DNA of 15,158 nt from the UHGV virus genome UHGV-1773351; one strand, given 5' to 3'. Below, one piece after another: positions 287 through 15,158 of this stretch. A model generated the notes under the pieces. It was not told where the DNA came from and ran no database searches. It saw only the letters and a list, made by a program, of their open reading frames with translations. The stretch is from a virus. Within the stretch, counting starts at the first letter, position 1; each line of letters starts with the position of its first letter. The translations under genes and the position numbers were made by a program.

Positions 287-523
287 ATGCAGAACAATCC
301 GAACAAATGTCGAACGCTATGGGTGCGGTTATATATTTATGCCGTCCTCTGTTTGATTGTGTCACTGGTTCTGTATGTTTGGCTTTTGCCAAATATGATC
401 TCATCTAACAGCACAATACTTGTATTGTTGGGAGTCCTTCTCGCGCTCATTTACCCGGCTTTCGCAGTAGTCTTTTTTCGTGAAAAAACCAGGAAATTAA
501 TTAATGAAAAAAACGTTGATTAG
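287..523 (+). CDS. small membrane protein (78 aa, two hydrophobic helices), probable partner of the downstream SPFH lipoprotein
   Basis: ORF with GGAG 7 nt upstream of ATG 287. Two hydrophobic stretches (YIYAVLCLIVSLVLYVWLL and ILVLLGVLLALIYPAFAVVFF). 3' end overlaps the next gene by 20 nt, suggesting coupling. Confidence 0.4.
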   Translation: MQNNPNKCRTLWVRLYIYAVLCLIVSLVLYVWLLPNMISSNSTILVLLGVLLALIYPAFAVVFFREKTRKLINEKNVD

Positions 524-1331
524 TGCAGCGATTATTTTGGGTTCTTTATGTCTGACCGGATGCGATCGGGTAGAGCCAGGTAACGTAGGGATCAAAGTAA
601 ATAAGCTGGGGGATGATAAAGGTATCGGTGAAGTAGTTGGCGTTGGTCGCTACTGGACAGGCTTGAATACTGAAGTTTATATCTTCCCGACCTTTAAGCA
701 AATGAAGACATACGATGAGCCGTTCAGCTTCCAGATGAGCGACGGAACAACCATTGGTTACCACATCGGCGTAGCCTACAAGGTTGATCCAGCAAAAGTC
801 ACAACGGTATTTCAGACCTATCGCAAAGGTGTAGATGATATTACTGATACCGATCTACGCCAGAAGGTTGCAGATGCTCTGAACCGATTAGCCAGCAAAA
901 TGACCACCGACAAATTTATCGACGGTGGCAAATCTGAATTGCTTGATGCAGCCCTTAAAGACATTCAGGAAGAAATGACGCCAATCGGCATTCAGGTGAT
1001 GAGCCTCTCTTATGTAGGTAAGCCAGAATACCCGCCAACAGTTATTGACAGTATTAACGCCAAAGTCACGGCAAACCAAAAAACCCTGCAACGCGAGCAA
1101 GAGGTCAAACAACGTGAAGCAGAGGCCAACATGCTGCGCGCGGAAGCTGCCGGACAGGCTGATGCTATTCGCACAAAAGCCCAGGCCGAAGCTGATGCCA
1201 TTCGTTTACGTGGTGAAGCTCTGCGCCAGAACCCCGGTGTTATGGACTTGGAAGCGATCAACAAATGGAACGGTACATTACCGCAGTATATGACCAGTAA
1301 TACCGCTGTTCCGTTTGTTCCGGTGAAATAA
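504..1331 (+). CDS. SPFH/band-7 (HflK/C-flotillin-like) family lipoprotein
   Basis: Signal peptide with lipobox (MKKTLISAAIILGSLCLTGC). AGGAA upstream of the ATG. Central SPFH-like region followed by an Ala/Glu/Arg-rich coiled coil (EAEANMLRAEAAGQADAIRTKAQAEADAIRLRGEA). Confidence 0.75.
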   Translation: MKKTLISAAIILGSLCLTGCDRVEPGNVGIKVNKLGDDKGIGEVVGVGRYWTGLNTEVYIFPTFKQMKTYDEPFSFQMSDGTTIGYHIGVAYKVDPAKVTTVFQTYRKGVDDITDTDLRQKVADALNRLASKMTTDKFIDGGKSELLDAALKDIQEEMTPIGIQVMSLSYVGKPEYPPTVIDSINAKVTANQKTLQREQEVKQREAEANMLRAEAAGQADAIRTKAQAEADAIRLRGEALRQNPGVMDLEAINKWNGTLPQYMTSNTAVPFVPVK

Positions 1332-1358: not shown

Positions 1359-1434
1359 GGCCCTTTAGCTCAGTGGTTAGAGCTGGCGACTCATAATCGC
1401 ACGGTCACCGGTTCAAGTCCGGTAGGGGCCACCA
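1359..1434 (+). tRNA. tRNA with CAU anticodon; overall closest to tRNA-Ile2 (lysidine type, ileX-like), not elongator or initiator tRNA-Met
   Basis: 76-nt cloverleaf folded by hand: 7-bp acceptor stem GGCCCTT/AGGGGCC (one G-U), D arm GCTC-AGTGGTTA-GAGC, anticodon loop CTCATAA (CAT at 1392-1394), T arm ACCGG-TTCAAGT-CCGGT, encoded CCA. D-loop, C4/C5 acceptor pairs and anticodon stem GGCGA match the E. coli ileX pattern as I recall it. Confidence 0.85.
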
Positions 1435-14118: not shown

Positions 14119-14152
14119 AATGCTGGTGGAGTGCGCCCACCAGCATTTTTTT
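14119..14152 (+). terminator. rho-independent terminator after the 420-aa gene
   Basis: 11-bp stem AATGCTGGTGG/CCACCAGCATT with loop AGTGCGC, followed by a T7 run. Confidence 0.75.
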
Positions 14153-14171: not shown

Positions 14172-14678
14172 TTGAGTATTTTCAATAAACATGCACACCA
14201 GGAACGTCCGTATATCGTCATAGTCGATATTGATGGAACAATATCAAAGGCAACTGAAGACAGACTGCATTTGCTTCCGCCACCAGGTAAAGGTGCATTA
14301 ACAAAGGACTGGAACGAGTTTAATCTCGCCTGTGACACCGATACTCCCATCACTCCAGTTATTGATATGGTGCGCCAGTTATTTAACGTTTACACGGTCT
14401 GGTTTGTAACCGGGCGCTGTGAGATCGCAAGGGATAAAACACGAGCCTGGCTGCGGAAGTACGTAACAAACGGGGCTGAGCCTTTGCTATCTATGCGTCC
14501 TGCCACCGATGACAGAAATGACGGCCCAGCAAAGATTGATCTCCTTAAGAAAATTGGTCTAAGTAAAATCGCGTTCGCGCTGGAAGATAAGATTGAAGTG
14601 GCGCGTGTTTTCAGGAGGCACGGCGTGCTTACGTTAATGGTCAGGGAGTATGAAAATGCGCTTCTTCACCAACAATAA
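14172..14678 (+). CDS. HAD-superfamily phosphatase (DxDGT motif; resembles polynucleotide 3'-phosphatase / nucleotidase-type domains)
   Basis: TTG start with a strong GAGGAGG 5 nt upstream. Motif I IVIVDIDGT and motif II-like WFVTGRCE. Confidence 0.7.
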   Translation: MSIFNKHAHQERPYIVIVDIDGTISKATEDRLHLLPPPGKGALTKDWNEFNLACDTDTPITPVIDMVRQLFNVYTVWFVTGRCEIARDKTRAWLRKYVTNGAEPLLSMRPATDDRNDGPAKIDLLKKIGLSKIAFALEDKIEVARVFRRHGVLTLMVREYENALLHQQ

Positions 14679-14707
14679 TTGCTCTAATAAATCTTGATTT
14701 TTAAAAC
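14678..14707 (+). promoter_or_regulatory. C1-operator-like 17-mer (ATTGCTCTAATAAATCT) with overlapping sigma70-like promoter; second copy of the 30-bp module
   Basis: 16 of 17 matches to the recalled consensus. Same 30-bp module as at 12537 (13 + 11 identical positions, same spacing). Confidence 0.5.
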
Positions 14708-14776
14708 AGGGAAAGTGAAAATAAAAACATGCCGCAAGGCGCGGCATGTATCCAATCAATCACAGGAGCTGAAAAT

Positions 14777-14863
14777 ATGAACACGGCATTCAAAATCATT
14801 ATGGCCGCGATCTATTTCTGGCTGTTCTCTATCACTTTTGGCGGCATCGTCGCTCATGGGTAA
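14777..14863 (+). CDS. small hydrophobic peptide (28 aa, MNTAFKIIMAAIYFWLFSITFGGIVAHG), single predicted transmembrane helix
   Basis: AGGAG 8 nt upstream of the ATG. Sits downstream of the operator/promoter module and a perfect 8-bp hairpin (14728-14748). Too short for the ORF track; found by reading the sequence. Confidence 0.4.
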   Translation: MNTAFKIIMAAIYFWLFSITFGGIVAHG

Positions 14864-14942
14864 GGGGAGTATATTAGCCATTTGGAACCCCACGGTCTCT
14901 TGCGGGTTTAATTAAGAACCCGCAAGAAAAACACGAATTGGG

Positions 14943-15158
14943 CTATATTTTTCCGCCTACGCCTTTAAACTTCTCAATAAACGAGACGATTTTCTGGAAA
15001 ACTGCCTGTTTTTTCTTTTTATATTGCGGATTCAACGGACTAAGTTTTGGTAATGTTTCGTTTAATTCTGTGCCATTTTCGGTGGCATATTCGCGTTTTA
15101 AAGACGTGCGAATATAGCGTTTTGCTGCATCTTCATTGAGATTTTCTTCTTTTATCAA
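14943..15158 (-). CDS. hypothetical protein, C-terminal part only (gene starts beyond the window end)
   Basis: Minus-strand ORF open to the window edge, stop at complement of 14943-14945. The M at the edge in the ORF track is a TTG artifact. Confidence 0.4.

What the first reader, a model, noticed from the sequence alone, without database searches (positions are those of the whole stretch)
14678..14863. Operator-controlled small hydrophobic peptide with a structured leader: possible toxin or holin-like peptide
A 28-aa peptide with one predicted transmembrane helix has a good Shine-Dalgarno. It lies downstream of the best operator match and a perfect 8-bp GC-rich hairpin (CATGCCGC-AAGGC-GCGGCATG, 14728-14748) in the predicted 5' UTR. 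This architecture is reminiscent of type I toxin mRNAs or small membrane-targeting phage peptides.
Basis: inference. Interest (0 to 1): 0.5.

Follow-up and report, generated by a model that had tools for sequence, protein, structure and literature searches.

The report
Phage P1 operator leader, small ORF
This is the known C1-repressor-controlled Op88/pmgT control region of a P1-like phage-plasmid, carrying a very conserved but uncharacterised 28-codon membrane-peptide ORF; nothing supports calling it a toxin or holin.

Summary
The window is a P1-like phage-plasmid. Bases 14678-14694 are P1's annotated C1 operator Op88/OpmgT with its predicted promoters.

The 28-codon ORF (14777-14863) is not annotated in the curated P1 and P7 records. 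Other records call it 'membrane protein' or 'hypothetical protein'. In P1 its stop lies 9 nt before the pmgT start, so it reads as the first cistron of that operon. Here a convergent type IC hsdMSR locus replaces pmgT..humD.

The ORF is intact in 139 of 141 P1-like loci, always with AGGAG and ATG. The stretch from the hairpin to the ORF is the most conserved DNA between variable flanks. Substitutions show no significant coding signature (6 synonymous, 11 non-synonymous), and synonymous sites are also conserved. Part of the constraint may therefore act on the nucleotide sequence itself.

No homolog exists outside P1-like elements, and no toxin, holin, defence or Rfam family matches. No convincing antisense promoter was found.

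On the minus strand the hairpin is a canonical intrinsic terminator, placed to stop hsdR read-through. On the plus strand it sits at the predicted mRNA 5' end.

Verdict: known regulatory region plus an uncharacterised small ORF. Toxin or holin function is unsupported. Modest interest.

The parts
14172..14678 (+). pap, a 3'-phosphatase/PNKP-like HAD protein. It is the upstream neighbour, and its stop overlaps the first operator base.
   Evidence: Annotated Pap in P1. Pfam HAD_PNKP, E = 4e-12. Clear coding signature: 75 synonymous and 65 non-synonymous variants, p = 2e-15.
14678..14694 (+). C1 repressor operator, P1 OpmgT (formerly Op88); called 'Op(hea)' in P7.
   Evidence: 1 mismatch to the consensus and the best of 4 matches in the window. 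Annotated protein_bind at the homologous position in P1 and P7.
14694..14722 (+). Predicted sigma-70 promoter P1pmgT: -35 TTGATT at 14694-14699, 17-nt spacer, -10 GAAAAT at 14717-14722. The implied start is about 14729-14730. A second predicted promoter, P2pmgT (-35 at 14679-14684, -10 at 14702-14707), overlaps the operator.
   Evidence: P1 annotation transferred by alignment. My relaxed scan finds TTGATT-17-GAAAAT at 8/12. The tool's stricter scan does not report it. The P2 -10 is mutated in some relatives. Both promoters are predictions, not mapped starts.
14717..14749 (-). Nine-pair GC-rich stem-loop (14727-14749) followed on the minus strand by TTTTTATTTT (14726-14717). On the minus strand this is a canonical intrinsic terminator. 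On the plus strand the same stem-loop sits at or next to the predicted 5' end of the operator-controlled mRNA.
   Evidence: Terminator scan hit. Folds: -16.3 kcal/mol on plus and -17.2 kcal/mol on minus, z = -4.0 and -4.3. The stem is kept in all haplotypes, and indels occur only in the loop.
14764..14768 (+). Shine-Dalgarno AGGAG, 8 nt before the ATG.
   Evidence: Read directly from the sequence. Invariant in all 141 P1-like loci.
14777..14863 (+). 28-codon ORF encoding MNTAFKIIMAAIYFWLFSITFGGIVAHG, a predicted single-helix membrane peptide.
   Evidence: Intact in 139 of 141 P1-like loci. Annotated 'membrane protein' in SJ46 and 'hypothetical protein' in JL22, phi456 and RefSeq WP_001312275.1. 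Not annotated in P1 or P7.
14864..14869 (+). Remnant of the pmgT Shine-Dalgarno (TAAGGGGAG) and the junction where homology to P1 ends.
   Evidence: Alignment of the window with P1, RCS47, JL22 and SJ46. The match to P1 stops at window 14867.
14899..14926 (.). Stable hairpin just downstream of the hsdR stop, with no U-tract on either strand.
   Evidence: Folds at -19.9 and -19.8 kcal/mol, z = -5.6 and -6.5. The flanking bases can be read.
14943..15158 (-). 3' end of a type IC hsdR gene, convergent with the small ORF.
   Evidence: Pfam EcoR124_C, E = 9e-13. A 99.6% identical plasmid has hsdR-hsdS-hsdM followed by phd-doc.

Best explanation
This is the early, C1-repressed control region that precedes the pmgT ('hea') operon in P1-like phage-plasmids. 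In the lysogen, C1 bound at 14678-14694 occludes the overlapping or abutting -35 boxes. On induction or infection, transcription starts about 14714-14730, so the 9-bp stem-loop lies at or near the 5' end of the mRNA. A strong SD (AGGAG, 8 nt) then drives translation of a 28-residue peptide with one hydrophobic helix and Lys6 on the N-terminal side. In P1, P7, SJ46, RCS47 and JL22 this ORF is the unannotated or 'hypothetical' first cistron. Its TAA overlaps the pmgT SD, and the pmgT ATG follows 9 nt later, so the two are probably translationally coupled. In this window the downstream operon (pmgT..humD) has been replaced by a convergent type IC hsdMSR locus. The small ORF is then the only product of the operator-controlled unit. 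The same hairpin read on the minus strand (hairpin plus U5AU4) is the first canonical terminator that hsdR read-through would meet. Shown: the identity of the operator, the anatomy, the conservation and the module replacement. Inferred: the transcription start, translation of the peptide, its membrane location, the coupling and terminator use. The peptide's biochemical role is unknown; nothing indicates toxicity.
For: The window is collinear with P1 from ban to pap, and the operator and promoters are annotated at the homologous site. The ORF stop lies 9 nt before the pmgT-like ATG in P1, RCS47, JL22 and SJ46. SD and ATG are invariant, and the 28-aa frame is intact in 139 of 141 loci. Indels occur only upstream of ATG 14777. 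Two independent downstream replacements (the hsd type and L042) break within 0-6 nt after the stop, and L042 keeps a stop as TAG. Non-synonymous variants are mostly rare and lie in the C-terminal third, while synonymous variants at Ala26 and Ile24 are common. The peptide is in the top 2% for hydrophobicity. Nucleotide diversity bottoms out at 14717-14866, with pi of 0.000-0.02 against 0.02-0.10 in pap and 0.03-0.3 in pmgT. In P1 RNA folds the pmgT ATG is paired with the last codons of the small ORF, with unpaired probability 0.05. The minus-strand terminator is detected. The hsdR-proximal hairpin lacks a U-tract.
Against: Six synonymous against 11 non-synonymous variants does not differ from neutral expectation (p = 0.17). 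Segregating sites are spread evenly over codon positions (6/6/5), whereas pap shows 30/18/74. Third positions vary less than in pap, so the constraint may act on RNA or DNA rather than on the peptide. No homolog exists outside P1-like elements. The curated P1 and P7 records do not call the ORF. Two loci (L057, L060) have codons 20 onward replaced. The promoters are weak by consensus (8/12) and unmapped here. The predicted coupling stem differs between the two main haplotypes. No expression data were found.
Confidence: 0.55

Rival explanations
1. The conserved stretch (about 14717-14866) is mainly an RNA- or DNA-level element, and the ORF is incidental or only a ribosome-loading leader. Candidates are a structured mRNA leader, a terminator, or a recombination anchor at the edge of a cargo hot-spot.
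For: There is no codon-position bias in the ORF. Synonymous sites are conserved: 5 of 27 third positions segregate, against 74 of 168 in pap. The first 60 nt of the ORF are invariant in 59 pmgT-type haplotypes. The non-coding leader 14728-14776 is equally conserved. The stretch borders variable region 8 (Fig. 2H) of P1-like plasmids. The peptide has no relatives elsewhere.
Against: The SD/ATG geometry is canonical and invariant. The frame and stop are kept across independent rearrangements, and indels stay outside the ORF. No Rfam family matches; the best hit is GcvB at 20 bits against a threshold of 42. The fold z-score for the whole leader is only -2.4.
Confidence: 0.28
2. It is a type I toxin-antitoxin-like module. 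The peptide would be a membrane toxin whose translation start is covered by a cis-antisense RNA of about 74 nt. That RNA would start near 14791 on the minus strand and end at the 14749-14717 terminator. In hsd-type elements, hsdR read-through could play the same role.
For: The peptide is small and hydrophobic. A canonical minus-strand terminator lies just upstream of the SD and ATG. A CATAAT -10-like hexamer lies at 14803-14798 on the minus strand. The region it would span, including synonymous sites, is extremely conserved.
Against: The -35 candidates match only 3/6 at 15- or 19-nt spacing. No match to Hok, Ldr, Ibs, TisB, Fst or other families or to Rfam antitoxin RNAs was found. The SD is only partly paired, with unpaired probability 0.4-0.6, so the mRNA is not locked in an untranslatable fold. 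The ORF is already controlled by a protein repressor and sits in an operon with pmgT. The peptide lacks the charged tail common in such toxins. An AT-rich -10 box followed by a 5' hairpin will look like a reverse-strand terminator anyway.
Confidence: 0.1
3. It is a holin, antiholin or other lysis-timing peptide.
For: The only support is that the peptide is a small, single-helix, phage-encoded product.
Against: It is under an early C1-controlled sigma-70 promoter, not an Lpa-dependent late promoter, and is not next to lysis genes. At 28 aa it has no charged C-terminal tail. No PHROG or Pfam holin family matches. The surrounding operon genes are non-essential for lytic growth in CRISPRi and knockout data (PMC10695390).
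Confidence: 0.02

Closest known systems
Bacteriophage P1 operator OpmgT (formerly Op88) with predicted promoters P1pmgT/P2pmgT; 'Op(hea)' in P7
   Same: It has the same sequence and the same position directly after pap. Identity to P1 is 97-98% through window 14867.
   Different: Downstream, pmgT..humD is replaced here by a convergent type IC hsdMSR locus that runs up to phd-doc. The curated P1 and P7 records do not annotate the hairpin or the small ORF.
Type I toxins (Hok, Ldr, Ibs, TisB, ShoB, ZorO, DinQ, Fst) and their antisense RNAs
   Same: All involve a hydrophobic single-helix peptide of 19-50 aa with a structured 5' leader. Here a terminator on the opposite strand overlaps the leader.
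   Different: There is no sequence or covariance-model match and no credible antisense promoter. Control is by a protein repressor, and in P1 the ORF is co-cistronic with pmgT.
Bacterial and phage small membrane proteins found by ribosome profiling or tagging (for example AcrZ, MgtS, CydX-type modulators)
   Same: Size, a single helix, a strong SD, and a history of being missed by annotation pipelines.
   Different: There is no homology to any of them and no known partner. This comparison is a resemblance from general knowledge, not a tested membership.
Translationally coupled leader ORFs, in which the upstream stop overlaps the downstream SD
   Same: In P1 the sequence TAAGGGGGATGCATG places the pmgT SD on the small ORF's stop. 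The predicted fold pairs the pmgT ATG with the ORF's last codons.
   Different: The coupling stem is weak and its shape differs between haplotypes. Coupling has no role in this window because pmgT is absent.
Intrinsic (Rho-independent) terminators and 5'-terminal stabilising stem-loops (ompA-type)
   Same: On the minus strand there is a 9-bp GC-rich stem followed at once by U5AU4. On the plus strand the stem begins at the predicted +1.
   Different: Neither role has been measured. In pmgT-type elements no convergent gene is annotated that would need the terminator.

Membership tests
P1 C1-controlled operator/promoter region (Op88/OpmgT) | A 17-bp asymmetric C1 operator matching ATTGCTCTAATAAATTT | tested here: met
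   16 of 17 bases match at 14678-14694, and the match count exceeds chance.
P1 C1-controlled operator/promoter region (Op88/OpmgT) | Orthologous position directly after pap, in DNA collinear with P1 | tested here: met
.
P1 C1-controlled operator/promoter region (Op88/OpmgT) | C1 binding and repression of downstream transcription | not testable with these tools
   This rests on the P1 record's annotation. The primary papers are not held.
Type I toxin-antitoxin system | Small hydrophobic membrane peptide | tested here: met
   28 aa, GRAVY 1.30, best 19-residue window 2.1.
Type I toxin-antitoxin system | Antisense or divergent RNA antitoxin with its own promoter | tested here: inconclusive
   A minus-strand terminator is present. 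The only promoter candidate is CATAAT with a 3/6 -35 at 15- or 19-nt spacing. No RNA data were available.
Type I toxin-antitoxin system | Homology to a described toxin or antitoxin family | tested here: not met
   No Pfam, NCBIfam, PADLOC or PHROG match at E <= 0.1. The best Rfam hit is GcvB at 20 bits, below its threshold of 42.
Type I toxin-antitoxin system | Toxicity on expression | not testable with these tools
   This needs inducible expression.
Holin / lysis peptide | Late expression within or beside a lysis cassette | tested here: not met
   The promoter is an early C1-controlled one. The neighbours are pap and pmgT or hsdR, not lysis genes.
Holin / lysis peptide | Membrane helix or helices plus a charged cytoplasmic C-terminal tail; homology to holin families | tested here: not met
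   The C-terminus is ...GGIVAHG, without charged residues. No PHROG or Pfam holin family matches.
Genuine protein-coding small gene | Start signals and reading frame conserved across relatives | tested here: met
   AGGAG and ATG are invariant. 139 of 141 loci keep the 28-aa frame, and indels lie only outside the ORF.
Genuine protein-coding small gene | Excess of synonymous over non-synonymous change | tested here: inconclusive
   6 synonymous and 11 non-synonymous variants, dN/dS about 0.5, p = 0.17. For pap the counts are 75 and 65, p = 2e-15. Power is low because the sequence is nearly invariant.
Intrinsic terminator (minus strand) | GC-rich stem directly followed by a U-tract | tested here: met
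   ACATGCCGC-GCCTT-GCGGCATGT followed by TTTTTATTTT, at -17.2 kcal/mol.
Intrinsic terminator (minus strand) | 3' ends of transcripts mapping to the U-tract | not testable with these tools
   This needs Term-seq or 3'-RACE.

The most novel reading that the evidence does not exclude
The 150-nt conserved stretch could encode a repressor-gated membrane-active peptide together with a cis-antisense RNA that ends at the leader hairpin. That would be a type I TA-like or early host-manipulation module unique to P1-like phage-plasmids. It is present intact in about 10% of complete E. coli genomes and has been overlooked in the reference annotation of a model phage.
Probability: 0.1. Interest if true: 0.6.

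Novelty: new member of a known kind. Interest (0 to 1): 0.3.

Why it matters
P1 is a model phage, and P1-like phage-plasmids are common: an intact copy of this region occurs in 564 of 5,426 complete E. coli genomes. If the 28-aa peptide is made, it is an unannotated early P1 gene. It sits exactly at the edge of a cargo-exchange hot-spot that carries restriction systems and other accessory genes. The finding also corrects two annotations. The 44-aa start used by PGAP is probably wrong. The leader hairpin also works as a terminator for the convergent hsdR gene in hsd-type elements. None of this changes how P1 regulation is understood, because the operator itself has long been described.

Tried and rejected
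- Family scans of the 28-aa and 44-aa products against NCBIfam, Pfam, PHROGs and PADLOC gave nothing; the best was phrog_27041 at E = 0.16.
- Rfam at E <= 10 gave only sub-threshold GcvB and psRNA6 hits.
- Homology searches found only P1-like copies at 92% identity or more. These were the word-indexed 5.8-billion set, exhaustive HMMER over 1.84 billion representatives, tblastn against phages, and a degenerate back-translated pattern in species-representative genomes (2 Escherichia hits) and metagenomes (65 hits).
- PmgT homologs are widespread in unrelated temperate phages, so the small ORF is not a companion of the PmgT family. I did not inspect their upstream regions.
- The literature gave nothing. 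The peptide string is in no held paper. The P1 genome paper is not held. The P1vir transcriptome paper (PMC8201110) does not mention pmgT, and none of the passages shown concerned this region. A search for 'Op88' returned only unrelated hits.
- A first attempt to profile diversity into pmgT failed, because ungapped comparison and single-HSP filtering kept only 3 loci. I redid it after typing the downstream modules.
- I compared the leader by eye with two annotated P1 late promoters and saw no match; this was not a formal search.
- I rejected the hairpin as a plus-strand terminator for pap because no T-run follows it on that strand.

Full report
**What the window is.**
- Megablast of 14100-15158 hits 19 P1-like phages (Punavirus: P1, P7, SJ46, RCS47, JL22, phi456 and others) at 94-99% identity.
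- The window is collinear with P1 from ban through gene 5, 6, 24, 7, 25, 26, pmgL-pmgS and pap.
- Window 14678 corresponds to P1 84293.
- Homology to P1 itself stops at window 14867. Two phages and many plasmids continue to the window's end.

**Check of the observation.** All four features are real.
- The operator ATTGCTCTAATAAATCT (14678-14694) has one mismatch to the C1 consensus. It is the best of four matches in the window, where 0.07 are expected by chance. The other three are P1's Op82 and Op86a/b.
- P1 annotates this site as 'monovalent C1-controlled operator OpmgT; former Op88', with predicted promoters P2pmgT and P1pmgT. P7 calls it 'Op(hea)'.
- The hairpin is exactly where stated and has a ninth A-T pair. 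It folds at -16.3 kcal/mol with z = -4.0.
- The ORF 14777-14863 encodes MNTAFKIIMAAIYFWLFSITFGGIVAHG, with AGGAG 8 nt upstream.
- Only four AGGAG-N(4-10)-ATG combinations occur in the window on both strands. The peptide's GRAVY of 1.30 is in the top 2% of 99 small ATG ORFs.

**Genomic anatomy in relatives.**
- In P1 the ORF lies at 84392-84475 (stop at 84476-84478) and is not annotated. pmgT starts at 84488.
- The junction reads GGG TAA GGGGGATGC ATG, so the pmgT SD overlaps the small ORF's stop. RCS47, JL22, SJ46 and P7 have the same layout with a pmgT-like first gene.
- SJ46 annotates the ORF as 'membrane protein'. JL22 (gp98), phi456 (Orf75) and RefSeq (WP_001312275.1) annotate a 44-aa 'hypothetical protein' from ATG 14729.
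- That upstream ATG lies inside the hairpin and has no SD. A GG insertion in the loop, or a 4-nt deletion at 14753-14756, puts it out of frame in several relatives, while the 28-aa frame is untouched.
- In this window the DNA after TAAGGGGAG differs from P1. The window ends in the C-terminus of a type IC HsdR on the minus strand (Pfam EcoR124_C).
- In a 99.6% identical plasmid, hsdR-hsdS-hsdM run up to phd-doc. The hsd locus therefore replaces pmgT..humD, which one survey lists as variable region 8 (Fig. 2H) of P1-like plasmids (PMC9603915).
- Many IncF plasmids carry a fragment (hsdRSM-phd-doc) cut by IS1 at window 14784. This removes the ORF's start.

**Conservation.**
- I collected 156 loci: 80 through Pap in IMG/VR, 65 from metagenomes and 2 from genomes through a degenerate pattern, and the rest from annotated records.
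- Of 148 evaluable loci, 141 are P1-like and all have AGGAG plus ATG. Of these, 139 keep a 28-aa ORF, and 119 have the identical peptide.
- Two loci (L057, L060) have codons 20 onward replaced by AT-rich DNA. Seven are the IS1-truncated fragments.
- The metagenome loci are biased towards intact copies by the search pattern. The Pap-anchored set is not.
- In 89 unique haplotypes covering pap through the ORF, pap shows a textbook coding signature. Its segregating sites by codon position are 30/18/74, and it has 75 synonymous against 65 non-synonymous variants (p = 2e-15).
- The small ORF shows 6/6/5 by codon position and 6 synonymous against 11 non-synonymous variants. This gives p = 0.17 and dN/dS of about 0.5.
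- Non-synonymous variants are mostly rare and lie in the C-terminal third. The common variants are synonymous: Ala26 GCN and Ile24 ATT.
- Nucleotide diversity has a sharp trough over 14717-14866. In pmgT-type elements pi is 0.000-0.002 over 14777-14836. This compares with 0.02-0.10 in pap and 0.03-0.3 in pmgT. The all-type profile agrees.
- The stretch from hairpin to ORF is therefore the most conserved DNA in the neighbourhood, and synonymous sites are included.
- This argues for function. It also means peptide-level selection cannot be shown, and some constraint may act on the RNA or DNA.
- A recombination or hitch-hiking explanation cannot be excluded, because the stretch borders a module-exchange hot-spot.

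**The hairpin.**
- The stem is kept in all 15 haplotypes. Changes are confined to the loop or to the closing pair.
- On the minus strand it is followed at once by TTTTTATTTT and is called as a terminator.
- The hairpin nearest the hsdR stop (14899-14926) has no U-tract on either strand. By the established rules for intrinsic termination, hsdR read-through would therefore end at 14749-14717 after running antisense across the small ORF.
- On the plus strand, the better-conserved predicted promoter is P1pmgT (-10 GAAAAT at 14717-14722). It puts +1 at about 14729-14730, the first bases of the stem. This is the geometry of a 5'-terminal stabilising stem-loop, which is an inference.
- An AT-rich -10 box followed by a 5' hairpin will look like a reverse-strand terminator in any case. 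The two readings are therefore not independent.
- No convergent gene is annotated in pmgT-type elements.

**Toxin or holin?**
- No family in Pfam, NCBIfam, PHROGs or PADLOC and no Rfam model matches.
- Exhaustive protein searches find only P1-like copies.
- The best minus-strand promoter candidate is CATAAT at 14803-14798, with 3/6 -35 boxes at 15- or 19-nt spacing.
- The SD is about half accessible in the ensemble, so the mRNA is not locked shut as in hok-type mRNAs.
- The ORF is under an early repressor-controlled promoter and is not in a lysis cassette. The operon genes around it score as non-essential for lytic growth (PMC10695390).
- The type I-like reading stays open at low probability. 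The points in its favour are the terminator's position and the frozen 14757-14836 core.

**Coupling.** In P1 RNA folds, the pmgT ATG is paired with the last codons of the small ORF (unpaired probability 0.05). This fits translational coupling. The stem is weak, however, and differs between the two main haplotypes.

**Verdict.**
- The region is the known P1 Op88/OpmgT control region.
- The small ORF is a plausible but unproven early small membrane-protein gene restricted to P1-like elements. Some pipelines already call it 'hypothetical' or 'membrane protein'.
- The toxin or holin label is unsupported.
- An intact copy occurs in 564 of 5,426 complete E. coli genomes, and about 320 more carry the truncated fragment.
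- Interest is modest.

Noticed in passing
window 14784-15158, and locus L004 9001-16190: Many IncF resistance plasmids, including ST131-type CTX-M-15 plasmids, carry a P1-derived fragment. It starts at window 14784 next to IS1 and continues through hsdR-hsdS-hsdM, phd-doc and one further gene to an IS26. Type IC restriction and Phd-Doc addiction therefore travel together as a P1 remnant.
   Followed up: partly
window 504-1331: A 275-aa SPFH/Band 7 protein (Pfam E = 1e-30) occupies the place where P1 has tciA-tciB-tciC. This is another swapped cargo module.
   Followed up: no
window 1359-1434: ARAGORN calls a tRNA with anticodon CAT as tRNA-Met. The homologous P1 gene is annotated trnI (tRNA-Ile2, CAT).
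   Followed up: no
window 14119-14147: A strong plus-strand intrinsic terminator (11-bp stem plus a T-run) lies between pmgS and pap. This implies that pap is not simply co-transcribed with pmgR-pmgS.
   Followed up: no
window 14172-14675 (pap): pap is unusually polymorphic among P1-like elements, with pi up to 0.12 and alleles at 93-94% and 98-99% protein identity. It contrasts sharply with the near-invariant leader and ORF next to it.
   Followed up: partly
L057 3163-3400, L060, and L042 after the ORF stop: These are rare alternative junctions. In L057 and L060 the ORF is fused after codon 19 to AT-rich DNA with no long ORF. In L042 a different module starts exactly at the stop codon, which becomes TAG.
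   Followed up: partly
window 14729-14863: The 44-aa product annotated by RefSeq/PGAP and several phage records starts at an ATG inside the hairpin and has no SD. It is out of frame in relatives that carry leader indels, so the start is probably mis-called.
   Followed up: yes
window 14899-14926: A 12-bp hairpin (-19.9 kcal/mol, z about -6) lies right after the hsdR stop and has no U-tract on either strand. Its role is unknown.
   Followed up: no
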